Below are positions 11,753 to 20,625 of a stretch of 64,000 nt of DNA, in pieces. The DNA comes from Flavobacteriaceae bacterium (lineage in GTDB: Bacteria > Bacteroidota > Bacteroidia > Flavobacteriales > Flavobacteriaceae), in NCBI GenBank assembly GCA_002694465.1, contig NZMG01000030.1, positions 3,488 to 67,487 of the forward strand. The letters run 5' to 3'. Every line of letters begins with the position of its first letter. The first letter of the stretch is position 1. Below the pieces are notes generated by a model, which saw nothing but the letters and a program-made list of their open reading frames with translations, was not told the DNA's origin and did not search any database. The position numbers and the translations under genes are program-made.

Positions 11753-11866
11753 TTTTAAAAATGTTCAATTTAATCCCTAATTAGATTCACTTTTTTGAAA
11801 TCTGATTTTTATCAGTTCAAGAAAATTCAATTTTGCTATTTTTAAACCTGGCAAGAACAACGATTT

Positions 11867-13612
11867 ATGAATTACGGGTTTACCGACTTTCTACAATTAT
11901 TTGGGTCTCTGGGTCTCTTCCTCTTCGGAATGAAAGTAATGAGCGACGCCCTTCTTAATTTGGCTGGCGATCGCATGCGAAAGATATTGGCAACCATGAC
12001 TTCCAATAAGTACATGGGTATTTTTACGGGGTTTTTAATTACTTCTGTTATACAGTCTTCCTCTGCGACAACCTTGATGGTTGTTAGTTTTTCTAACGCT
12101 TCATTGTTAACGCTTACAGAAGCAATAAGTGTTATTATGGGGGCCAATATTGGTACTACAATTACAGCTTGGTTAATAACAATTTTAGGGTTTAAAGTTA
12201 GTATGAGTGCTATTGCATTACCCTTAGTGGGTTTTGGTTTTGCTTTTACTTTCTCAAAAAAGCCTTCATTAAAAAATTGGGGTGCCTTTATAATTGGGTT
12301 TTCCATTTTATTTATAGGATTACAATTCTTAAAAGATGCTGTACCAGATATTAAAAGCAATCCTGAGATTTTAGCTTTTTTAACGAGCTACACAGATTTA
12401 GGCTTTTGGTCTATATTAATCTTTTTACTTATAGGAACATTATTAACTGTAATAATTCAGTCATCCAGTGCTACTATGGCACTAACGTTAATTATGACTG
12501 CACAAGGATGGATTTCATTCGAGTTGGCTGCTGCTATGGTTTTAGGGGAAAATATAGGAACAACCATTACGGCCAATCTAGCTGCAATAGTAGCAAACTT
12601 CCAAGCAAAGCGAACGGCAAGAGCGCACTTTTTATTTAATATTATTGGGGTAATTTGGGTATTGATTTTATTTTACCCATTCCTAAAATTAGTTACTTGG
12701 GTTTCAGAAAAAGCAGGCTCGGATTCTCCTTATCTTACTGCTGCTGCTATTCCTGTTGCAATTTCTTTGTTTCACACTATTTTCAATATCTGTAATACAT
12801 TTTTATTGATGTGGTTCATCAAGCCTATAGCAAAAATTGTGGAACGATTAGTGCCAGAAAAAGAAATTGTTGAGAAAGAAATGGATGAGCCTAAATTTCT
12901 TATGAATAGCGTTCTGGAATTTCCAGAAACATTAATTCATTCATTAAAAAATGAATCGAAATATTTGTTTGAAAATTCAATTCTTGAAATAGTTTCAAAA
13001 GCAATGAATATTATTTCAACAGATTTAAAATCTGAAACTAAAATTAAAAAGGTAGTAAAGAAGAATAAACAAGACTTAAAAACGGATGTAGATAATTTGT
13101 ATTACACCAAAGTAAAAAATATTTATGGGAAGATTATTGAGTATGCAACAAAGGGGCAGAGTAGTTTAAAACTTACCCAAAAGCAAACCAAAGAAATTTC
13201 GGAAGTTAAATTAGCCAATAGAGTTATGGTAGAGATAGTTAAAAATTGTGTTGGGCTAAATAAGAATGTTACTAAGTACTTTAATTCTGAAAATGAATTT
13301 GTTAAAAAAGAATACTATAAATACCGAAAAAAAATCGCTAAAGTTATAAGAGTAATTTATCTATTCGCTGAGCAAGATGAGAAAGATAAATATTATTTAA
13401 AATTAAGAAAGCTAAAACAAGAAGCAGAACAGGAATACCATCATTCTAATGAATCTATTAATAGTTTAATACGTCAAAATCTCATTAGTGTTTCCATGGC
13501 TTCTTCTTTAATTAATGATAATGATACTGTTAATGATATTATTAAGAAACTCATCATCGTAGCAGAGTTGTTATTTACTACTAAAGATAGTTTATTAGAA
13601 AATGGAACATAA
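11867..13612 (+). CDS. Na/Pi cotransporter family protein (NptA-like) with PhoU-like C-terminal region
   Basis: Two QSSSAT repeats, GANIGTT and GENIGTT motifs, soluble helical C-terminus. Confidence 0.93.
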   Translation: MNYGFTDFLQLFGSLGLFLFGMKVMSDALLNLAGDRMRKILATMTSNKYMGIFTGFLITSVIQSSSATTLMVVSFSNASLLTLTEAISVIMGANIGTTITAWLITILGFKVSMSAIALPLVGFGFAFTFSKKPSLKNWGAFIIGFSILFIGLQFLKDAVPDIKSNPEILAFLTSYTDLGFWSILIFLLIGTLLTVIIQSSSATMALTLIMTAQGWISFELAAAMVLGENIGTTITANLAAIVANFQAKRTARAHFLFNIIGVIWVLILFYPFLKLVTWVSEKAGSDSPYLTAAAIPVAISLFHTIFNICNTFLLMWFIKPIAKIVERLVPEKEIVEKEMDEPKFLMNSVLEFPETLIHSLKNESKYLFENSILEIVSKAMNIISTDLKSETKIKKVVKKNKQDLKTDVDNLYYTKVKNIYGKIIEYATKGQSSLKLTQKQTKEISEVKLANRVMVEIVKNCVGLNKNVTKYFNSENEFVKKEYYKYRKKIAKVIRVIYLFAEQDEKDKYYLKLRKLKQEAEQEYHHSNESINSLIRQNLISVSMASSLINDNDTVNDIIKKLIIVAELLFTTKDSLLENGT

Positions 13613-13657: not shown

Positions 13658-15901
13658 TTAATTCTTTTTATAACTATTGTAATACTCTTCCATTAAGTGG
13701 ATAAGAGCTGTCACAAGATCTTTAGTTTCCATTAATAAATTGAAATAAAGTGTGGTATTCTTTGGACTAGACTCTTCCGTTCTAGTTCTTTGAATTTGCT
13801 TCTCAATTTTTGCTGAGATATCTGCATAAGCCTTTTCTTTTCGGTCTAAAATACCTTCAAGTCTTTCAAAATCCTTGGTATCAAAAATATTTACAATATC
13901 CATTAGTAGGTGCTCGAATGAAGCATTTATTTCTTGAAGATCTTTAATTTGATTAAATTTTAGGGCCTTGTGATTATTGTTAACATGCTTGTAACTCTTT
14001 TTTGTTATGTATTCTAAGGACTGAGCCACATCGGTTAAATATCCAAGTATAATGATATAGAAGTTACTACCTCTTACACTTGTATCATCAAGATTTTTAA
14101 TAAAATAGAATATGTTATTTCTTAAATCTTCAATTTCATTATCGAGTTTTTCAACCCCCTTCTTTGTCTTTTTAAGTTTCTTTTCATCTTGCTTTGCAAG
14201 ACCTTTAATTACCTCTGTATAAATCTTATTTGTTCTGGAAACAACATTTGAAATGTTATTTGCACTTTCAGAAATAATTCCTTGTACCGTTTTACTTTCA
14301 GACTTTTTTAAACCAGTTTTGTCTAGTTTTTCTATTCCTTTTCTTTTATGTGACAAATAATTTCTTATTAATAATGCTAATGCGACTAATAATAGGATAG
14401 CAATAGCAGGTCCTCTTCCTATATAAATGATATAGGTTAAGGTTCCCGCGGCTAAAAAAGCACTGAATGCTGTAAAAAACCAGCCTCCAATGACGTTTAG
14501 TACTCCTGCTACTCGATATACCGCACTTTCACGCCCCCAAGCTCTATCTGCCAATGAGGTACCCATAGCTACCATAAAAGTTACATAGGTAGTGGAAAGA
14601 GGTAACTTCATTGAAGTGGCAATGGCAATAAGAATACCAGCTACCGTTAGGTTTATAGAAGCACGAATCAAATCAAATGCAGGTATTTCGTGAGCTTTAC
14701 CAGCTGGAATTTTTACCTCTGGTTTTTCGAAACTTTTCGCAATTTTATCTTGTGTTGACTGAGGTATAGCACCCCCTAATAATGAAGCTAATTTTGTACT
14801 TCCTTTAACAACAGCACGAGATAAGATGTTAGGATTAAATTTTTCTGCCCCGTCACCTTGTCTAGAGAGTCCTATTTCTGTTTCGGTAACAGTTCTTGCT
14901 TTTTTGGAAAACCAAAGTGTTAATACCATTATAGCACCAGAGACAAATAGTAAAAGAGGTTCTGCAGGGACTTTTTCTTCAAGAACATTCATTGAAAATG
15001 CATTCGCCGCTTCTCCAGAGACAGACCAAGCTTCATAACTATGGTATGCAGCCATAGGAACACCAATAAAGTTAACTAAATCGTTTCCAGAAAACGCTAA
15101 TGCTAACCCAAATGTCCCAATTGCTATTACTACCAATAGGATGCTTTTTTTAAATATTTTAGTAAATAATATTGAAAAGGCAGTCCAAAAAAGAAACCCA
15201 ATTCCTATTACTATCCAAAAATTTGTAGCTAGAATTTCTTTAAAAGCACTATAATTTGGAGCTCCTTTAAGTCCTTTAAAAAAGATAAAATAGCTAATTG
15301 CGGTTAGGGTTAAACCCCCAAAAATGGCCCCAAAATTCTTCATTTTTTGTTCGTAATGAAACGAAAATACAAGCCTAGATAACCATTGAACCAGTGCTCC
15401 TAGGGTAAAAGCAATTACTACTGAAAGTAAAATACCTGTGATAATTTCTATTGCCTTTTCAGAATTTATATAATTTCCTATATCAGCCATCGTTTCCGAA
15501 GAGGACGCGCCAATTTTTATAAGCGCCATTACTACAGTAGCACCTAGTAAAGAAAAAACTATGGATACTGTAGTGGAAGTGGGCATTCCTAGTGTATTGA
15601 AGAAATCTAGTAATAAAATATCCGTAATCATTACGGCTAAAAATATTATCATAATTTCATCAAAATAGAATTCTCCAGGGATAAAAATCCCTTTACGAGC
15701 AACTTCCATCATCCCACTGGAATAAACGGCTCCAATAAAAATTCCTAAACTCGCAACAATCATAATGGTACGGTAAGGAATAGCTTTAGAACCAATTGCA
15801 GAATTTAGAAAGTTTACAGCATCATTACTAACACCAACAACTAAATCAACAATAGCTAAAACCGCTAAAGCTACAAGCATTAAAATGTAAATATTATCCA
15901 T
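13658..15901 (-). CDS. PiT/PHO4 family inorganic phosphate transporter with PhoU-like C-terminal domain
   Basis: GVSNDAVNFLNSAIGS, GMPTSTTVSIV, GNDLVNFIGVP, LPLSTTYV signature motifs. Confidence 0.93.
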   Translation of the reverse strand: MDNIYILMLVALAVLAIVDLVVGVSNDAVNFLNSAIGSKAIPYRTIMIVASLGIFIGAVYSSGMMEVARKGIFIPGEFYFDEIMIIFLAVMITDILLLDFFNTLGMPTSTTVSIVFSLLGATVVMALIKIGASSSETMADIGNYINSEKAIEIITGILLSVVIAFTLGALVQWLSRLVFSFHYEQKMKNFGAIFGGLTLTAISYFIFFKGLKGAPNYSAFKEILATNFWIVIGIGFLFWTAFSILFTKIFKKSILLVVIAIGTFGLALAFSGNDLVNFIGVPMAAYHSYEAWSVSGEAANAFSMNVLEEKVPAEPLLLFVSGAIMVLTLWFSKKARTVTETEIGLSRQGDGAEKFNPNILSRAVVKGSTKLASLLGGAIPQSTQDKIAKSFEKPEVKIPAGKAHEIPAFDLIRASINLTVAGILIAIATSMKLPLSTTYVTFMVAMGTSLADRAWGRESAVYRVAGVLNVIGGWFFTAFSAFLAAGTLTYIIYIGRGPAIAILLLVALALLIRNYLSHKRKGIEKLDKTGLKKSESKTVQGIISESANNISNVVSRTNKIYTEVIKGLAKQDEKKLKKTKKGVEKLDNEIEDLRNNIFYFIKNLDDTSVRGSNFYIIILGYLTDVAQSLEYITKKSYKHVNNNHKALKFNQIKDLQEINASFEHLLMDIVNIFDTKDFERLEGILDRKEKAYADISAKIEKQIQRTRTEESSPKNTTLYFNLLMETKDLVTALIHLMEEYYNSYKKN

Positions 15902-15921
15902 TTTTTAAAAATTATTTTCGG

Positions 15922-15966
15922 GCAAAATTCTTAATTAATTTATGATTACCTGTTATCAAATTGTTA
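15922..15966 (-). promoter_or_regulatory. PiT promoter with Pho-box-like TAACA direct repeats
   Basis: Plus-strand TGTTA at 15951 and 15962 (11-bp spacing), 29 and 40 nt from GCAAA (the -7 TTTGC) at 15922. Confidence 0.6.
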
Positions 15967-15973
15967 CGTTTTA

Positions 15974-17176
15974 TTAAAAATGCAGGTCAAAACCTATTCT
16001 AAATTCAATGCTATCTGCATCACCTTCTAACGTAGTATAACTAACATCAGATTGAACTTTAAGTTTGTGGCCTACAATATACTTAGAAACACCTAAAGTA
16101 TACTGTTCTTCACCTAGTCTACTAGTAATGTTATTATAATCTGTATTAGTAAACCTTCCTGCAATTTCATAATTATTTTTAAATAAATAACCAGCTTGTA
16201 AATTTAATGCATTACCTACTAATACAATATCTCCAGTTTCGGTTCCGTCTGCTTCGATGGCTACAGGGTTTTCGGCATCTCTATTAGCATATTCTCCCAT
16301 AAATGAAAAACCTTTGTATTTAAACATGGTATCAATAAACAAAGTGGTAATATCGGTTTCGTATAAAGAGCCATCTTCCAAAAACATATAGGAACCTAAA
16401 TTACTTCTTGTTTTTACAGCATCTTGATTTAAATCGTAAGTTACTCCTATCATTAATTTTGGTGAAGCCTCTCTAGCTAAATCTGCTTGAAAATAATCTC
16501 CATTGGATTTAAATAATCCAAATGGAAGGAACTCTAATCTACCGGTATATTGTAACCCACCTTCATTTCCTTCGGTGATATTTCTTCCTTCTCCCTGTGA
16601 AATAGCAACTTTTTCACGAATTATAAAATCTCCGCCCAAATTTGCGTGATGACGTAATTGCATTCCTATATCGCGGTCAATATTGAAGCGGCTGTTTAGT
16701 AAGGATCGGTCTATTAATTGCATATTTGCTGAAGAAACAACACGTTCTACGTTTCCTGGCAATTTTGTTTGCCCTACCCATAATTCGAAATTTTCATAAA
16801 AATTCCACATAATTACCGCATCCAATATATATCTAGGCGTATTTCGGTTAAATTCATTTGCTCCTGATATGTCTCTATTAGAAAGACCTAATTCAATTTT
16901 ATATTCAAGTTTAGGTGAGTATGCCCATCCATCAAATTTTAAACGAGCACGTCTTATTAAAAAATTATGCTCTGGGCTATTATAATTATTACCATTATAA
17001 TCCCAGTTCGTTTCAGAACGAAATTGAATCCTTGGAGCAAATTTGATACTAAAAGTACTATCTTTTGCAGTGTAATTAATGATTCCTTTTCCAAATGAAG
17101 TGTCACTAATTTCTTGAGCTTCAATAGTAAGTGTGGAAAATAAAATTGCCAAAATGGCAAACTTTAAAAGTTTCAT
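15974..17176 (-). CDS. Phosphate-selective porin (OprO/OprP family)
   Basis: Signal peptide, FLIRRARLKFDG, VGQTKLPGNVERVVSS, C-terminal DLHF; context among Pi transporters. Start reassigned to MKLLKF (17176). Confidence 0.85.
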   Translation of the reverse strand: MKLLKFAILAILFSTLTIEAQEISDTSFGKGIINYTAKDSTFSIKFAPRIQFRSETNWDYNGNNYNSPEHNFLIRRARLKFDGWAYSPKLEYKIELGLSNRDISGANEFNRNTPRYILDAVIMWNFYENFELWVGQTKLPGNVERVVSSANMQLIDRSLLNSRFNIDRDIGMQLRHHANLGGDFIIREKVAISQGEGRNITEGNEGGLQYTGRLEFLPFGLFKSNGDYFQADLAREASPKLMIGVTYDLNQDAVKTRSNLGSYMFLEDGSLYETDITTLFIDTMFKYKGFSFMGEYANRDAENPVAIEADGTETGDIVLVGNALNLQAGYLFKNNYEIAGRFTNTDYNNITSRLGEEQYTLGVSKYIVGHKLKVQSDVSYTTLEGDADSIEFRIGFDLHF

Positions 17177-17202
17177 GTAAATCGTTTTAAGTTTTTGTCG
17201 GT

Positions 17203-17247
17203 GCAAAGAACTTAAACCAATGTTAACTGAATGTTACCTATAAGTTA
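17203..17247 (-). promoter_or_regulatory. Porin promoter with four phased Pho-box-like half-sites
   Basis: Plus-strand ACTTA 17210, TGTTA 17221, TGTTA 17232, AGTTA 17243 (all 11 bp apart), at offsets 7/18/29/40 from GCAAA at 17203. Confidence 0.65.
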
Positions 17248-17265
17248 TTTTTAAAAATATTATAC

Positions 17266-17291
17266 AAAAAGGGTCGCCCATTGGGCGACCC
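17266..17291 (-). terminator. Terminator of the candidate phosphate-island sRNA
   Basis: Perfect 9-bp GC-rich stem gggtcgccc-att-gggcgaccc, with a T run only on the minus strand. Confidence 0.85.
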
Positions 17292-17355
17292 CACACATTG
17301 ATAAAATCTAGTCGACAAAAACTTAACGATTTATATGTGTATGTGTATTAAACAC
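17266..17355 (-). ncRNA. Candidate ~90-nt antisense sRNA of the phosphate island
   Basis: Own terminator, TTTATTTG -7-like element at 17368-17361, 5' hairpin GUGU-UUAAU-ACAC, and a 25-nt stretch complementary to the porin and Na/Pi symporter 5' UTRs. Confidence 0.7.
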
Positions 17356-17478
17356 AAAAACAAATAAAGGCCATCTGTATAGCTAAATCGTCATCTAAAT
17401 ATTAAATAAATATTAAGTTTTCTCTTTAATGCTGAAAAGGCATATATAGCACTGAAAATCAGTTTAATAATAATTCAA

Positions 17479-17533
17479 TGTTAATTTAATGTTATGCAAA
17501 CCTTTATTAATTGTTACCAATTTTGTAAATTTG
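17479..17533 (+). promoter_or_regulatory. Promoter of the 17.5-kb gene overlapped by TGTTA repeats
   Basis: Exact -7 TAAATTTG at 17526-17533; TGTTA at 17479, 17490 and 17512 (11 and 22 bp spacing). Confidence 0.55.
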
Positions 17534-17552
17534 AGCTATTAACCCTTAAAAT

Positions 17553-17921
17553 ATGTTTATCATGAGAAAATTATTAGTAGTATTTACTATTTCTCTTTTA
17601 GCAGGGTCGGCTTTTTCACAAGAAAAAGTACAAGATGAATTTGTTAAAGAAGGAAAAGTGATTAAAGCTACGCTTTACCATGAAAATGGAATGGTAGCTC
17701 AAACTGGTTTTTACACATTGGATAATAAACTAGAGGGTGAATGGATAAGTTATGATGCAGTAGGAAATAAAACTGCTGTAGCTCACTACAACAAGGGAAA
17801 CAAAGTTGGTACATGGTATTTTTACCAAGGTAATGAGATTAAGGAGGTAAATTACTCCAATTCTAAAGTTGCCAAAGTGACTTCTTTTAAGATTACAGAT
17901 GCTGTTGTGATATCCAACTAA
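17553..17921 (+). CDS. Secreted MORN-variant repeat protein (YwqK-like)
   Basis: Signal peptide (start may be 17562); repeats YHENGMVAQTGFY, LEGEWISYDAVGNK, KVGTWYFY. Confidence 0.75.
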   Translation: MFIMRKLLVVFTISLLAGSAFSQEKVQDEFVKEGKVIKATLYHENGMVAQTGFYTLDNKLEGEWISYDAVGNKTAVAHYNKGNKVGTWYFYQGNEIKEVNYSNSKVAKVTSFKITDAVVISN

Positions 17922-17940
17922 AGACAAAAACTTACAAATC

Positions 17941-17972
17941 AAAAAATGCCTCAATTTTGAGGCATTTTTTGT
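17941..17972 (+). terminator. Rho-independent terminator
   Basis: aaaaaatgcctca-attt-tgaggcatttttt perfect stem. Confidence 0.88.
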
Positions 17973-18044
17973 TTATGGGATATATTTAAAACTTTAACAA
18001 AGTAATAAGATTTGAAAATTTTTAAAATATATATTTTTGGGGTC

Positions 18045-18317
18045 ATGTTAAAATCGGTTGCACATAGCTTTTTTTCGCTTTTTTTCATCATAGCGTTGTT
18101 AGGACCTTCTGTTTTTCAGTTGTGTGCTAAAGATGTTGCTCCAATTGTTATAACTATTCAGGAGGAAGAGGCGAAAGAAAAAATATTTTCAATTACCGAT
18201 TACGTTTCTCATATTCATGTTTATGTTCCCAAAAAGGAATTAAATACTGCCTACGTTGAAAGGCGCTATATACACACTTCAGAAGTTTTTCTACCTCCCC
18301 CAGAACATATTAGTTAG
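18045..18317 (+). CDS. Small uORF ending in ...EVFLPPPEHIS upstream of SulP; probably leaderless
   Basis: 90 aa from ATG 18045 (the track uses TTG 18012); hydrophobic N-terminus, acidic middle, C-terminal PPP. Exact -7 TATTTTTG at 18032-18039 puts the TSS at about the ATG. Confidence 0.7.
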   Translation: MLKSVAHSFFSLFFIIALLGPSVFQLCAKDVAPIVITIQEEEAKEKIFSITDYVSHIHVYVPKKELNTAYVERRYIHTSEVFLPPPEHIS

Positions 18318-18391
18318 TTTTTCGATTTTTTAAAAAATTAATATAAAATCTGTTTGAAAAGTATTTTTTCAAACCACTAATCTATTATAAT

Positions 18392-19984
18392 ATGTTTAAA
18401 TCGTTACGAAATGACATACCAGCGAGTATTGTCGTATTTTTTGTAGCATTGCCGTTATGTTTAGGTATTGCCCTTGCCAGTGGAGCACCTTTATTTTCAG
18501 GTTTAATTGCTGGTATTGTAGGGGGGGTTATTGTTGGATCTTTAAGTGGGTCTAAAATTGGAGTTTCTGGTCCTGCGGCAGGATTAGCAGCCATTGTATT
18601 GACAGCCATAGGAACCTTAGGTGGGTTTCAAAATTTTTTGGTGGCTGTTGTATTGGCAGGTGTAATACAGCTTTTGTTTGGAATTTTAAAAGCTGGAATT
18701 ATTGCATATTACTTTCCTTCTTCTGTGATAAAGGGAATGCTAACAGGAATAGGAATTATTATTATATTAAAACAAATCCCCCATTTTTTTGGATATGATC
18801 CAAATCCAGAAGGAGATTTTGCTTTTTTTGAAGTTTCAGGAGATAATACTTTTTCAAGTCTTATTAAGACCATTAATAACATCATCCCCGGCTCTGCCTT
18901 AATTGGTATAGTTGGCTTAGGAATATTAATCCTGTGGGAAAAAGTGTTGTCTAAAAAAGGAAAGATATTTCAATTAGTTCAAGGACCCTTGGTAGCCGTG
19001 ATTGTGGGGATTGCGTTTTATGCACTTACAAAGTCTCATGATTCACTTTCCATTGCAGGATCACATTTGGTAAGTGTACCTGTTCCAGAGGATGCCGCCT
19101 CTTTTTTAGGACAATTTAGTTTTCCAAATTTTTCAGTCATTACCCAACAAGATATTTGGATTGTGGCATTTACTTTAGCTTTGGTAGCGAGTCTTGAAAC
19201 TCTGCTTTGTGTTGAAGCAACCGATAAACTTGACCCAAATAAAAACGTTACACCTACTAATAGGGAACTTTTCGCACAAGGGGCGGGAAATATTATTTCG
19301 GGATTAATTGGAGGGTTGCCTATTACACAAGTAATTGTGAGGAGTTCTGCTAACATCCAATCTGGAGGAAAGAGTAAAATGTCCACCATTATACATGGGT
19401 TTTTCCTATTAATTTCTATCATATTGATACCAAAATTGCTTAATATGATTCCCCTTTCTGTACTTGCAGCAATTTTACTTGTGGTTGGTTATAAATTGGC
19501 AAAACCGCAATTATTTAAAAAGATGTATGATTTAGGGTGGAAACAATTTGTACCTTTTACGGTAACAGTTTTGGGGATTATTTTTATTGATCTTTTATAT
19601 GGAATAGGATTAGGATTACTAGTAGGGATTGTTGTAATTCTTATTAAAAGTTATCAAAATTCCCATTTCCTGCATAAAGAGGATGTAAGTAATGGAGTCC
19701 AGAAATTGAAAATGACGTTAGCGGAGGAAGTGACCTTTTTTAACAAAGGAGCAATATTAAAGGAATTGGATAGAATCCCTAGTGATTCATATGTTGAGTT
19801 AGACGTAAGAAAAACTCGATATTTGGATAATGATATTATTGAAATATTAGATGATTTTGCGTATAAAGCTAAGGAAAGAAATATTACGATTAAGTTAATT
19901 TCTGAAAGAGGGACGGTTGTTAACCCTCCTAGTTATATTGAATTTTTTAAATTAAGACCAGTAACCGAACAATTTACAAACTAA
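18392..19984 (+). CDS. SulP family inorganic anion (probably bicarbonate) transporter
   Basis: ALPLCLGIALASGAP..SGLIAGIVGG, VSGPAAGL, NRELFAQGAGN, C-terminal STAS-like domain; directly upstream of a carbonic anhydrase. Confidence 0.93.
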   Translation: MFKSLRNDIPASIVVFFVALPLCLGIALASGAPLFSGLIAGIVGGVIVGSLSGSKIGVSGPAAGLAAIVLTAIGTLGGFQNFLVAVVLAGVIQLLFGILKAGIIAYYFPSSVIKGMLTGIGIIIILKQIPHFFGYDPNPEGDFAFFEVSGDNTFSSLIKTINNIIPGSALIGIVGLGILILWEKVLSKKGKIFQLVQGPLVAVIVGIAFYALTKSHDSLSIAGSHLVSVPVPEDAASFLGQFSFPNFSVITQQDIWIVAFTLALVASLETLLCVEATDKLDPNKNVTPTNRELFAQGAGNIISGLIGGLPITQVIVRSSANIQSGGKSKMSTIIHGFFLLISIILIPKLLNMIPLSVLAAILLVVGYKLAKPQLFKKMYDLGWKQFVPFTVTVLGIIFIDLLYGIGLGLLVGIVVILIKSYQNSHFLHKEDVSNGVQKLKMTLAEEVTFFNKGAILKELDRIPSDSYVELDVRKTRYLDNDIIEILDDFAYKAKERNITIKLISERGTVVNPPSYIEFFKLRPVTEQFTN

Positions 19985-19995
19985 AATAAAAGAGT

Positions 19996-20625
19996 ATGAA
20001 AGCACACACTAGAGAAACACAGGCTACAATGACGCCTCAAAAGTCATTACAATATTTAAAAGAAGGAAACGAACGATTTCAAAATAACTTAAAGGCAAAT
20101 AGAAACCTCTTAGAGCAAGTAAACGATACTAGCGATGGGCAATTTCCATTTGCAACCATTTTAAGCTGTATAGATTCTAGAGTTTCTGCAGAGTTAGTTT
20201 TTGACCAAGGATTAGGAGATATATTTAGCGTAAGGATTGCTGGAAATTTTGTGAATGAAGATATCTTAGGAAGCATGGAGTTTGCTTGCAAATTGGCTGG
20301 AACAAAGCTCATAGTTGTTTTAGGACATACCGCATGTGGCGCTGTAAAAGGGGCTTGCGACCATGCCGAAATGGGAAACCTTACAAAACTTATTCAGAAA
20401 ATAACGCCTGCAGTAAATGCTGTTACCGAGCCTAAAGATGAAAGTTTACGTAATTCGGCCAATGCTGAATTTGTGGATGCGGTTTCTGAAAAGAATGTTC
20501 AACTTACTATTGATCGAATACATGCAGAAAGTCCAATACTTTCCGAAATGGAGAAAAATGGTGAAATCATGATTATTGGAGCTATGTATGATATCAATAC
20601 TGGTGCAGTTACATTTTATGAATAA
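19996..20625 (+). CDS. Beta-class carbonic anhydrase
   Basis: GQFPFATILSCIDSRV, VRIAGN, VVLGHTACGAV Zn-ligand motifs. Confidence 0.95.
   Translation: MKAHTRETQATMTPQKSLQYLKEGNERFQNNLKANRNLLEQVNDTSDGQFPFATILSCIDSRVSAELVFDQGLGDIFSVRIAGNFVNEDILGSMEFACKLAGTKLIVVLGHTACGAVKGACDHAEMGNLTKLIQKITPAVNAVTEPKDESLRNSANAEFVDAVSEKNVQLTIDRIHAESPILSEMEKNGEIMIIGAMYDINTGAVTFYE

What the first reader, a model, noticed from the sequence alone, without database searches (positions are those of the whole stretch)
17266..17368. Unannotated ~90-nt sRNA at the centre of a phosphate-uptake island; candidate post-transcriptional hub
Seen: the 346-bp gap between the porin ORF and the 17.5-kb gene holds a strong terminator (17266-17291) with a U-tail only on the minus strand, yet no annotated minus-strand gene ends there. 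About 70 nt upstream is a -7-like TTTATTTG (17368-17361). The enclosed sequence reads GUGUUUAAUACAC-AU-ACACAUAUAAAUC-GUUAAGUUUUUGUCGACUA-GAUUUUAUCAAUGUGUG-terminator. It folds into a 5' hairpin plus a longer stem whose loop exposes AAGUUUUUGUC. That segment is complementary to the translation-start regions of two Pi-uptake genes in the window. The promoter also carries in-phase half-sites (plus-strand CGTCA 17389, TATTA 17400, TATTA 17411) at offsets 29/40/51, the same geometry as the other island promoters. Inference: a phosphate-status-regulated antisense sRNA that coordinates Pi transporters. I do not know of such a circuit described in Flavobacteriaceae.
Basis: partly seen in the sequence, partly recalled or inferred. 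Interest (0 to 1): 0.92.

Follow-up and report, generated by a model that had tools for sequence, protein, structure and literature searches.

The report
Conserved antisense sRNA upstream of phosphate porin
A ~91-nt non-coding RNA gene sits just upstream of a phosphate-porin operon in about half of Flavobacteriaceae genera, and its conserved loop and stem arm co-evolve with the porin mRNA's whole 5' leader and start codon, so it most likely silences porin translation; no RNA data were available to confirm that it is transcribed.

Summary
Window 17356-17265 (minus strand) contains a -7-like promoter box, a 5' hairpin and a long hairpin whose arm and apex (17337-17313) are antisense to the porin 5'UTR and AUG (17200-17174). 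A strong intrinsic terminator follows, and no gene ends there.

Rfam 15 has no match, and five literature searches found no description. A covariance model finds one copy in 201 of 401 Flavobacteriaceae genomes (166 of 302 genera) and none outside the family. In 48 of 49 loci examined it lies directly upstream of a direct-repeat (Pho-box-like) promoter and an OprO/P porin orthologue.

- **Pairing:** the sRNA:mRNA duplex starts at the predicted porin transcription start and covers the AUG in every species.
- **Co-evolution:** the duplex shows compensatory changes, many G·U wobbles but almost no A·C, and one lineage (G028) in which both partners were rewritten.
- **Second target:** a Na/Pi-cotransporter start region 5 kb away is also complementary in three genera.

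My best reading (0.68) is a base-pairing sRNA that represses the porin–PiT operon. I class it as a new sRNA family of a known kind.

The parts
17387..17416 (-). Three 11-bp-phased A/T-rich direct repeats upstream of the sRNA promoter: TTAATATT-tat-TTAATATT-tag-ATGACGAT. In other genera they read TTAATAAT-n3-TTAATATT-n3-ATTACATT. They are a candidate response-regulator site.
   Evidence: Sequence. The repeats are conserved in position, ending 22 nt before TTTG, in the genus and in other genera. The best matrix hits recur at offsets 15, 26 and 37. Binding and the identity of the regulator are inferred.
17361..17368 (-). -7-like promoter box TTTATTTG. The family consensus here is nAnnTTTG or TTnnTTTG.
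   Evidence: A TTTG (19 of 22) or TTTA (3 of 22) sits at the same place, 4-6 nt before hairpin 1, in all 22 first-set sequences. The placement of TAnnTTTG at -12 to -5 is taken from PMC9723704.
17265..17356 (-). Predicted sRNA of about 91 nt, from an inferred transcription start at 17356/17355 to the end of the U-tail at about 17265.
   Evidence: The covariance-model hit spans 17357-17263 at 80.8 bits. The fold z-score is -4.85. The segment is nearly invariant in six congeners while its flanks vary. The ends are inferred and were not mapped.
17343..17355 (-). Hairpin 1 (GUGU-UUAAU-ACAC).
   Evidence: The stem sequence differs between lineages while the pairing is kept: GUGC/GCAC, GUCG/CGAC, GUCU/AGAC, GUUUC/GAAAC. 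Two of its 3 pairs show both-sided changes.
17293..17340 (-). Hairpin 2, a long interrupted stem with the apical stem AGUU/GACU and the loop UUUGUC.
   Evidence: It is the minimum-free-energy fold in 38 of 49 family members. Its lower stem (helix 2) is 92% paired and its apical stem (helix 3) 99.4% paired in alignment A5.
17313..17337 (-). Antisense (seed) segment CAUAUAAAUCGUUAAGUUUUUGUCG, formed by the 5' arm and apex of hairpin 2.
   Evidence: It is an inverted repeat with 17174-17200. The core GUUUUUGUC is invariant in 22 of 22 sequences. Covariation with the porin leader is shown.
17265..17292 (-). Rho-independent terminator: GGGGUCGCCC-AAU-GGGCGACCC(U) followed by a U-tail.
   Evidence: A G+C-rich hairpin with a T-run is present in 22 of 22 homologues, with different stem sequences. 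Eight of 13 consensus pairs have compensatory changes, as do 6 of 11 in A5.
17219..17240 (-). Porin promoter direct-repeat box (Pho-box-like): TAGGTAACATTCAGTTAACATT. It ends 11 nt before TTTG.
   Evidence: The consensus from 49 loci is TAGGAAACATTAAGTTAACATT, and this site is the top hit in the whole genome at 32 bits. It is conserved across genera. Calling it a Pho box is an inference from the 11-bp direct-repeat form and the genes it precedes.
17174..17200 (-). Target: the porin mRNA 5' end (predicted start G17199), its 23-nt 5'UTR and the AUG (17176-17174).
   Evidence: The duplex energy is -26.4 kcal/mol, the best of 8798 start regions in the genome. All three AUG bases are paired in 19 of 22 species and two in the other three.
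13658..17176 (-). The regulated operon: an OprO/P-type phosphate porin (17176-15974) followed by a PHO4/PiT phosphate transporter (15901-13658).
   Evidence: Pfam PF07396 (7.3e-11) and PF01384 (8.8e-29). The 72-nt gap between the genes has no obvious terminator. That they form one operon is inferred.
11849..11869 (+). Candidate second target: the Na/Pi-cotransporter start region UGGCAAGAACAACGAUUUAUG.
   Evidence: Pfam PF02690. The duplex energy is -20.5 kcal/mol, rank 10 of 8798, z = -4.4 against shuffles. Matching complementarity occurs in G003 (-22.9), G017 (-24.9) and G259 (-15.1), but not in G207, G080 or G025.

Best explanation
This is a gene for a ~91-nt regulatory RNA, made from its own promoter and ended by a strong intrinsic terminator. 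It lies in tandem just upstream of the separately promoted phosphate porin–PiT operon.

The RNA folds into a 5' hairpin, a long hairpin and the terminator. The 5' arm and apical loop of the long hairpin (25 nt) pair with the porin mRNA from its first nucleotide through the start codon.

Bacteroidetes mRNAs have no Shine-Dalgarno sequence and rely on an open, A-rich leader. Covering the whole 23-nt leader and the AUG should therefore block ribosome loading, and probably speed up decay. The sRNA would then lower production of the porin and, by polarity, of PiT. In some lineages the same seed also fits the start region of the Na/Pi cotransporter, which implies action in trans.

**Shown here**
- The sequence anatomy.
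- The family-wide conservation and synteny.
- The intramolecular and intermolecular covariation.

**Inferred**
- That the RNA is transcribed as a discrete species.
- That the effect is repression.
- That its promoter responds to phosphate.
For: 1. **Orphan terminator.** It lies on the correct strand with no gene to terminate. A hairpin with a T-tail of unrelated sequence is kept in 22 of 22 homologues and shows compensatory changes.
2. **Local conservation.** The ~95 nt between the -7-like box and the terminator are nearly invariant in six congeners whose flanks diverge.
3. **Distribution.** The covariance model gives one hit per genome in 201 of 401 Flavobacteriaceae (166 of 302 genera). Outside the family it finds only terminator-only noise. 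An exact 29-mer of the seed region occurs in 76 marine metagenome contigs.
4. **Synteny.** In 48 of 49 loci the element is followed, on the same strand, by a conserved direct-repeat promoter and a porin orthologue.
5. **Extent of pairing.** The duplex runs from about -24 to +2...+11 of the porin mRNA in all 22 species, and the AUG is paired. Helix 1 is 15 contiguous pairs that start at the predicted transcription start. Complementarity stops there and does not run into the promoter.
6. **Covariation.**
   - Helix-1 position 11 is U-A in 35 sequences and A-U in 8. Position 13 is A-U in 24, U-A in 11 and C-G in 1.
   - Lineage-specific double changes occur: AUUUUU/AAAAAU in L089, UGGUUUUU/AAAAACCA in L109 and CUUUA/UAAAG in L025.
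   - In G028 both partners were rewritten (UUUUAUCUUUUAGUUUU with AAAACUAAAAGAUAAAA).
   - Duplexes of an sRNA with its own mRNA average -24.6 kcal/mol, against -21.3 +/- 0.37 when partners are permuted (0 of 5000 permutations as good).
7. **Strand-specific RNA signature.** Helix 1 has 30 G·U/U·G pairs against 5 A·C cells, 4 of which look like 1-nt indel artefacts, in 60 metagenome pairs. The genome set shows 16 G·U/U·G against 2 A·C.
8. **Genomes without the sRNA.** In G027 and G032, which have a porin orthologue but no sRNA, the CGACAAAAAC leader is gone.
9. **Trans-type complementarity.** The Na/Pi cotransporter, 5 kb away on the other strand, fits the seed in three genera.
10. **No coding potential.** No ORF is conserved on either strand.
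Against:
- The promoter box is off-consensus, matching 5 of 6 positions.
- The near-absolute tandem linkage to the target would also suit a purely cis-acting leader on read-through transcripts. The full 198-nt read-through RNA folds at -58 kcal/mol with the start region sequestered.
- G030 keeps the CGACAAAAAC leader without an adjacent sRNA. The leader motif may therefore have a constraint of its own.
- The second target is not universal: it fits in 4 of 7 genomes.
- The own-versus-permuted energy test does not correct for phylogeny.
- The direction of regulation and the dependence on phosphate are untested.
Confidence: 0.68

Rival explanations
1. The element is a cis-acting leader only. Transcripts that start at the upstream promoter either stop at the terminator (attenuation) or read through. 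Read-through transcripts carry an anti-start-region arm that folds back onto the porin leader and keeps them untranslated. Only transcripts from the Pho-box-like promoter are translated. The short terminated RNA is a by-product with no function in trans.
For: - The tandem, same-strand arrangement is kept in 48 of 49 loci.
- The read-through RNA folds with the start region fully sequestered, at -58 kcal/mol and z = -6.9.
- Intramolecular pairing would produce the same covariation and the same G·U signature.
Against: - A conserved, regulated-looking promoter with three phased repeats would exist only to make a silent transcript.
- The terminators are strong (8-11 bp G+C-rich stems with 5-9 U) and universally kept, so little read-through is expected.
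- Complementarity ends exactly at the predicted start of the promoter-proximal mRNA, which a fold-back in cis does not require.
- The unlinked Na/Pi-cotransporter start region matches the seed in three genera.
- An orphan copy persists in G024 without an adjacent porin.
Confidence: 0.17
2. The feature is a DNA-level inverted repeat. The arms 17174-17200 and 17313-17337 would flank an invertible (phase-variable) promoter segment, or be a relic of an inverted duplication of the porin 5' end. No RNA function would be involved.
For: - A 25/27-nt inverted repeat brackets a 112-bp segment that holds the porin promoter and the terminator.
- Invertible promoters flanked by inverted repeats are common in Bacteroidetes (general knowledge).
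- Gene conversion between the arms could mimic covariation.
Against: - All 66 genome copies and the metagenome copies checked (66 of 71 untruncated) have the same orientation, with full-length model hits that include the terminator.
- G·U pairs greatly outnumber A·C, which is strand-specific and therefore an RNA-level signature.
- The repeat has a 2-nt bulge and register shifts between lineages.
- One arm contains the start codon.
- None of the ten neighbouring gene products I scanned matched a recombinase family.
- The sequence beyond the repeat (GACUA) is conserved because it closes the apical stem.
Confidence: 0.03
3. It is a real sRNA, but the porin leader is not its main or repressed target. 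It might act mainly on other mRNAs. It might protect the porin mRNA's 5' end. Or the porin mRNA might titrate it as a sponge.
For: - The orphan copy in G024 persists.
- The seed also matches the Na/Pi cotransporter and a PIG-L-like exported protein.
- In the 'ATTAG' clade an internal mimic of the target can sequester the seed (11 of 49 minimum-free-energy folds). That hints at more complex control.
Against: - The porin is the only target conserved across the family, and it co-varies with the seed.
- The AUG is always inside the duplex, which is hard to square with activation.
Confidence: 0.08
4. The similarity is chance, or the region is a small-protein gene (for example the plus-strand MCMCIKHKNK, or a minus-strand ORF running through the terminator).
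For: Short ORFs can be drawn on both strands.
Against: - The frame and length are not conserved. G001 has a 2-nt deletion that gives MCVF*. The other clade would give MKY*.
- Conservation follows base-pairing, not codons.
- The family-wide covariance-model hits exclude chance.
Confidence: 0.02

Closest known systems
Enterobacterial porin-repressing sRNAs (MicF/ompF, MicC/ompC, MicA/ompA, InvR and SdsR/ompD)
   Same: All are short RNAs with a Rho-independent terminator, and a conserved single-stranded seed pairs with the translation-initiation region of an outer-membrane porin mRNA. Several are encoded next to a porin gene (micF by ompC, micC by ompN). See PMC3333887 and PMC5745476, seen, plus general knowledge.
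   Different: - There is no sequence or structural homology: the Rfam scan of this region returns none of these families.
- The host phylum lacks Hfq (general knowledge; RbpB is the proposed substitute, PMC11697453).
- The pairing is much longer, about 25 bp covering the whole leader.
- The gene sits in tandem directly upstream of the target's own promoter.
- The target is a phosphate-selective porin.
Bacteroides sRNAs: the cis-encoded PUL antisense RNAs (DonS type), and GibS, MasB and the FopS family of B. thetaiotaomicron
   Same: They belong to the same phylum and are Hfq-independent base-pairing RNAs. Some are encoded beside the outer-membrane uptake locus they repress, and their seeds sit in hairpin loops and target start regions (PMC7366714, PMC11697453; the details are from memory).
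   Different: - DonS-type RNAs are true antisense transcripts that overlap the target gene. This one does not overlap its target and depends on a separate, co-evolving complementary segment.
- The order is different (Flavobacteriales).
- No homology was detected.
Phosphate-stress sRNAs next to Pho-regulon genes, such as cyanobacterial PsiR1 upstream of psip1
   Same: An sRNA gene lies immediately upstream of, and on the same strand as, a phosphate-acquisition gene in a marine bacterium, with a Pho-box-like promoter.
   Different: As far as I recall, PsiR1 is not known to pair with the downstream gene's start region. The phylum differs and there is no homology.
Rfp18 and the other Rfp sRNAs of Flavobacterium psychrophilum
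   Same: They are the only experimentally studied sRNAs in Flavobacteriaceae, with a conserved seed in a stem-loop and predicted multiple targets (PMC9723704).
   Different: Rfp18 acts on metalloprotease mRNAs and is confined to the genus Flavobacterium. The present RNA is missing from the large genus g194, which is probably Flavobacterium. That paper reports no phosphate or porin link.

Membership tests
Any Rfam 15 family (including MicF, MicC, MicA and the Bacteroidetes motifs) | A covariance-model score at or above the family's gathering threshold. | tested here: not met
   The scan of the whole window at gathering thresholds returned only a tRNA. The permissive scan of 16000-19000 (E up to 10) found nothing over 17265-17356 on the minus strand. 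The only hit touching its 3' tail is a plus-strand OxyS match at 17151-17251, scoring 16.6 bits against a threshold of 75.
Base-pairing regulatory sRNA with its own transcription unit | Own promoter and a Rho-independent terminator, with no conserved ORF. | tested here: met
   A -7-like box is conserved in position in 22 of 22 sequences. The terminator is present in 22 of 22, with covariation. No ORF is conserved. Promoter activity itself was not shown.
Base-pairing regulatory sRNA with its own transcription unit | A discrete transcript of the predicted size is detected. | not testable with these tools
All 76 metagenome contigs are 1 kb or longer and are not transcript-sized.
Base-pairing regulatory sRNA with its own transcription unit | A conserved seed whose complementarity to the target start region is kept by compensatory change. 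| tested here: met
Base-pairing regulatory sRNA with its own transcription unit | It acts in trans on at least one target that is not co-transcribed with it. | tested here: inconclusive
   The Na/Pi-cotransporter start region is complementary in 4 of 7 genomes, and an orphan copy exists in G024. No functional test was possible.
Transcription-attenuation leader or riboswitch | The terminator lies between the only promoter and the regulated ORF. | tested here: not met
   A conserved direct-repeat box and -7-like element lie between the terminator and the porin ATG in all loci.
Transcription-attenuation leader or riboswitch | A conserved alternative (antiterminator) structure or a ligand-binding fold. 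| tested here: not met
   In the family folds and in the consensus structure the terminator stem pairs only with itself, and no competing helix is conserved. I did not search specifically for weak alternative helices.
Invertible promoter (inverton) | Inverted repeats flank a promoter-bearing segment. | tested here: met
   The arms 17174-17200 and 17313-17337 flank the porin promoter and the terminator.
Invertible promoter (inverton) | Both orientations are seen among genomes or reads, and a site-specific recombinase is nearby. | tested here: not met
   Only one orientation occurs in 66 genome copies and in the 66 of 71 untruncated metagenome copies checked. None of the ten neighbouring gene products scanned matched a recombinase family. 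Read-level heterogeneity could not be tested.
Pho regulon (PhoB/PhoR-controlled promoters) | A direct-repeat Pho box at the -35/-33 position, with induction on phosphate limitation. | tested here: inconclusive
   The porin promoter has a strongly conserved 2 x 8-nt direct repeat with 11-bp phasing that overlaps the -33 region. The sRNA promoter has three weaker repeats one helical turn further upstream. The regulator and the induction were not tested, and no phoBR genes were found among the window genes scanned.

The most novel reading that the evidence does not exclude
This would be a family-wide, chaperone-independent sRNA that the same phosphate-responsive regulator drives together with its target. 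That arrangement is a feed-forward loop. The sRNA would gate how much phosphate-selective porin, PiT and, in some lineages, NptA marine Flavobacteriaceae put into their envelope. It would be the first post-transcriptional layer described for phosphorus uptake in this ecologically dominant group. It would also be an unusual tandem arrangement, with the regulator directly upstream of its target's promoter, in which the sRNA covers the entire leader from nucleotide +1.
Probability: 0.35. Interest if true: 0.75.

Novelty: new member of a known kind. Interest (0 to 1): 0.62.

Why it matters
Flavobacteriaceae are major recyclers of organic matter in the ocean, and phosphorus often limits them. Their phosphate-uptake control has been described only at the transcriptional level (PMC8115612). 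Very few sRNAs are characterised in the family (PMC9723704).

This element gives a ready-made and unusually clean test case:
- one gene in one copy;
- one obvious target;
- natural compensatory mutations across about 170 genera;
- a phylum without Hfq.

It can show how long-seed antisense control works on leader sequences that lack a Shine-Dalgarno motif. It also supplies a new RNA family for annotation: Rfam has no model, and the covariance model built here finds it in half of the family and widely in TARA and estuarine metagenomes.

Tried and rejected
- **Rfam.** Both the gathering and the permissive scans gave no family.
- **Literature.** Five full-text searches, one of them for the seed sequence itself, found no description. 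The sequence hits were unrelated cloning primers.
- **Earlier scan notes.** Nothing by place, words or sequence.
- **Phage collection.** The blastn search found no match, so nothing points to a phage-borne element.
- **First alignment.** Three loci were in the wrong orientation and the alignment was redone.
- **RNAalifold on the MAFFT alignment.** It recovered only the apical stem and the terminator, because the two clades differ in register for hairpin 2. I therefore assessed hairpins 1 and 2 within one clade and by per-sequence folds.
- **Porin-box matrix scan of the genome.** It did not reveal a wider regulon. Only the porin box and the box of the divergent gene scored high, so calling it a 'Pho box' stays an inference.
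- **Hits outside the family.** They were terminator-only false positives.
- **Second strong copies.** Those in G224 and G413 are a recent duplication and a contig-end artefact, and say nothing about trans action.
- **Small-ORF readings.** Rejected for lack of frame conservation.
Full report
**1. What is in the sequence**

The 346-bp gap lies between two genes.
- On the minus strand is an OprO/P-type porin (ATG 17176-17174; Pfam PF07396). A PHO4/PiT transporter (PF01384) follows it.
- On the plus strand is a 122-aa ORF with a signal peptide (17553-17921).

Read on the minus strand, the gap contains these features in order:

| Feature | Coordinates | Sequence or note |
|---|---|---|
| Three 11-bp-phased A/T-rich repeats | 17416-17387 | candidate regulator site |
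| -7-like box | 17368-17361 | TTTATTTG |
| Hairpin 1 | 17355-17343 | short 5' stem-loop |
| Hairpin 2 | 17340-17293 | long interrupted stem |
| Terminator | 17292-17265 | GGGGUCGCCC-AAU-GGGCGACCCU + UUUUUGU |
| Direct-repeat box | 17240-17219 | TAGGTAACATTCAGTTAACATT |
| Second TTTG | 17207-17204 | porin -7-like element |
| Porin leader and start codon | 17200-17174 | CGACAAAAACTTAAAACGATTTAC + ATG |

- No minus-strand gene ends at the terminator.
- The 101-nt stretch folds far better than shuffles (-32.1 against -18.3 +/- 2.8 kcal/mol, z = -4.85).
- The segment 17337-17313 (CAUAUAAAUCGUUAAGUUUUUGUCG) is the reverse complement of the porin leader and AUG. Fourteen nt are perfect, and 25 of 27 pair with a 2-nt bulge and one mismatch.
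- Rfam 15 has no family here.

**2. Conservation**

*Within the genus.* One congener is Halomarinibacterium sedimenti CAU 1614, which is 97% identical here. In five congeners the stretch from the -7-like box to the U-tail is almost invariant while both flanks diverge. One species carries a compensatory U-A to C-G change in the terminator stem.

*In other genera.* The sequence changes but the architecture stays the same:
- nAnnTTTG, then a small 5' hairpin of differing sequence 4-6 nt later;
- ...UUUCAU...AUC-n-AUUAGUUUUUGUCGACUA...;
- a G+C-rich hairpin of unrelated sequence with a U-tail;
- a direct-repeat box (consensus TAGGAAACATTAAGTTAACATT);
- TTCTTTGCAGCGACAAAAACTAATA-n-ATG of the porin.

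*Family-wide.* A covariance model built from 22 sequences gave these results.
- It finds the element in 201 of 401 sampled Flavobacteriaceae genomes (166 of 302 genera), almost always once per genome.
- Outside the family only weak hits appear, and inspection shows that they are terminators without a seed.
- A large genus (g194, probably Flavobacterium) lacks it.
- The seed-region 29-mer occurs in 76 marine and estuarine metagenome contigs.
- In 48 of 49 loci examined the next gene on the same strand is a porin orthologue or, in two cases, another exported porin-like protein.
- The one exception (G024) is an orphan copy.

**3. Structure**

- Per-sequence folds give the same three-hairpin plan. 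The seed sits at the apex of hairpin 2 (apical stem AGUU/GACU, loop UUUGUC) in 38 of 49 minimum-free-energy structures.
- That apical stem explains why GACU, which lies beyond the region complementary to the mRNA, is also conserved.
- On a 32-sequence alignment of the 'ATTAG' clade, the hand-mapped structure is 94.8% paired. Slid controls give 30-50%.
- Both-sided changes occur at 10 pairs, mostly in the terminator (6) and in hairpin 1 (2). Hairpin 2 varies little within the clade, so its support comes mainly from compatibility and from the different but equally pairing sequence in the other clade.

**4. The intermolecular duplex**

- In all 22 first-set species, RNAduplex pairs the 5' arm and apex of hairpin 2 with the porin mRNA from about -24 to +2...+11. 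All three AUG bases are paired in 19 species and two in the other three.
- With TAnnTTTG placed at -12 to -5 (PMC9723704), the porin transcription start is predicted at G17199.
- Complementarity begins at C17200/G17199 and does not extend into the promoter. So the sRNA matches exactly the transcribed leader.
- Helix 1 is 15 contiguous pairs.
  - Positions 1-8 never vary.
  - Position 11 is U-A (35) or A-U (8).
  - Position 13 is A-U (24), U-A (11) or C-G (1).
  - Position 0 is G-C (40) or G·U (7).
- Individual lineages show double changes even in the otherwise invariant core:
  - AUUUUUGUCG with CGACAAAAAU in L089;
  - UGGUUUUU with AAAAACCA in L109;
  - UAAAG with CUUUA in L025.
- G028, which the model misses, has a rewritten pair (sRNA UUUUAUCUUUUAGUUUU, mRNA AAAACUAAAAGAUAAAAUG) in the same architecture.
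- Own-pair duplex energies average -24.6 kcal/mol, against -21.3 +/- 0.37 for permuted partners (0 of 5000). This test is not corrected for phylogeny.
- In 60 distinct metagenome pairs, helix 1 holds 30 G·U/U·G pairs against 5 A·C cells, 4 of which I attribute to the 1-nt GACAAAAAAC indel variant. The asymmetry is strand-specific. It points to selection on an RNA duplex formed by minus-strand transcripts and not on a DNA palindrome.
- Of three genomes with a porin orthologue but no detectable sRNA, two have lost the CGACAAAAAC leader (G027, G032) and one keeps it (G030).

**5. Other targets**

- A scan of 8798 candidate start regions of the window's genome ranks the porin first (-26.4 kcal/mol; background -9.3 +/- 2.7).
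- The Na/Pi cotransporter of the same island (ATG 11867, plus strand) ranks tenth (-20.5; a 21-bp duplex that includes the AUG).
- The cotransporter is present in 13 of 28 carrier genomes tested.
- Among the seven close orthologues, its start region fits the cognate sRNA in G000/G006, G003 (-22.9), G017 (-24.9, with a perfect UAGUCGACAAAAACU) and G259 (-15.1). It does not fit in G207, G080 or G025.
- This is the only evidence for trans action, and it is lineage-specific.
- An exported PIG-L-like protein (genome contig C10:1554) has a porin-like leader of unknown meaning.

**6. Regulation**

- The porin box is two 8-nt direct repeats 11 bp apart, ending 11 nt before TTTG. It therefore overlaps the -33 region, the geometry of an activator of the OmpR/PhoB class. 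It is the best match to its own matrix in the whole genome.
- The sRNA promoter carries three weaker repeats (TTAAyATT-like) in the same phase but one helical turn further upstream, ending 22 nt before TTTG. Their position is conserved across genera.
- The divergent small secreted protein has a third box (17495-17475).
- Whether one regulator binds all three boxes, and whether it turns the sRNA on or off, cannot be decided from sequence.

**7. Interpretation**

The simplest account of all the observations is a discrete, terminator-ended sRNA. It base-pairs with the complete short leader and start codon of the porin–PiT mRNA and blocks translation initiation. It has additional lineage-specific reach to the Na/Pi cotransporter.

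- *Cis-leader rival (0.17).* It explains the linkage and the covariation. It does not explain the conserved promoter between the terminator and the ORF, the strong terminators, the end of complementarity at the mRNA's +1, or the unlinked second match.
- *DNA-level inverted repeat or inverton (0.03).* A single orientation in 66 genome copies and 66 of 71 metagenome copies checked argues against it, as do the G·U bias and the absence of a recombinase among the ten neighbouring proteins scanned.
- *Coding readings.* They fail on frame conservation.

**8. Comparison and novelty**

In function it resembles the enterobacterial Mic-type porin repressors and, within the phylum, the Bacteroides sRNAs encoded beside uptake loci. 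It is a member of none of them, since there is no Rfam hit and no homology.

It differs in three ways:
- it lies in tandem directly upstream of its target's promoter;
- it covers the whole leader from +1;
- it acts in an Hfq-less family on a phosphate-selective porin.

I found no description in Rfam 15 or in five full-text searches. I rate it a new sRNA family of a known mechanistic kind.

**9. Limits**

- The transcript ends, the sign of regulation and the phosphate dependence are inferences.
- E-values from the shortened model calibration are rough. However, the bit scores (50-98) and the manual inspection of 66 loci are not in doubt.

Noticed in passing
window 17475-17495 and 17553-17921 (+): The divergent 122-aa ORF has a signal peptide and no Pfam or NCBIfam hit. 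It is syntenic with the sRNA and porin in other genera. It has its own copy of the direct-repeat box, the second-best genome-wide match at 19.6 bits, so it may belong to the same regulon.
   Followed up: partly
window 17938-17972: A perfect bidirectional terminator (AAAAAATGCCTCAAnnTTGAGGCATTTTTT) follows the 122-aa ORF. It produced spurious weak Phe_leader and rimP hits in the permissive Rfam scan.
   Followed up: no
L125 (genome G028), upstream of its porin: A diverged version of the sRNA that the covariance model misses. The seed and the porin leader have both been rewritten and remain 17 nt complementary, with the terminator and box in the usual places.
   Followed up: partly
L087 (genome G024): An orphan copy of the sRNA (56.6 bits) with no porin downstream. 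The genome has only a 39%-identical porin paralogue, and that gene's start region is not complementary to the seed.
   Followed up: partly
L104 and L110 (genome G224): A recent segmental duplication of the sRNA together with the porin promoter and 5' end. One copy is followed by a truncated porin fragment. The other has lost the sRNA's own upstream promoter region.
   Followed up: partly
sRNA 5' part in the 'ATTAG' clade (for example L013, L018): The segment GACAAACAAUUAGUA mimics the porin leader and can pair with the seed. This alternative, seed-sequestered fold is the minimum-free-energy structure in 11 of 49 sequences. It may be a built-in switch or may have no meaning.
   Followed up: no
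genome contig C10:1554-4055 (+), outside the window: An 833-aa exported protein with a PIG-L-like AHPDDE motif (recognised by eye, not by a family search). Its start region (GACUAAAACUUAAAGGAUUUUUAUAUG) resembles the porin leader, and the predicted duplex is -20.1 kcal/mol.
   Followed up: partly
window 18392-20625 (+): A SulP-family permease is followed immediately by a beta-class carbonic anhydrase, next to the phosphate genes. This pairing is typical of bicarbonate or sulfate transport.
   Followed up: no
L137-L212 (metagenome contigs): The exact 29-mer of the seed region occurs in 76 TARA, estuarine and other marine metagenome contigs, so the RNA family is common in the environment.
   Followed up: partly
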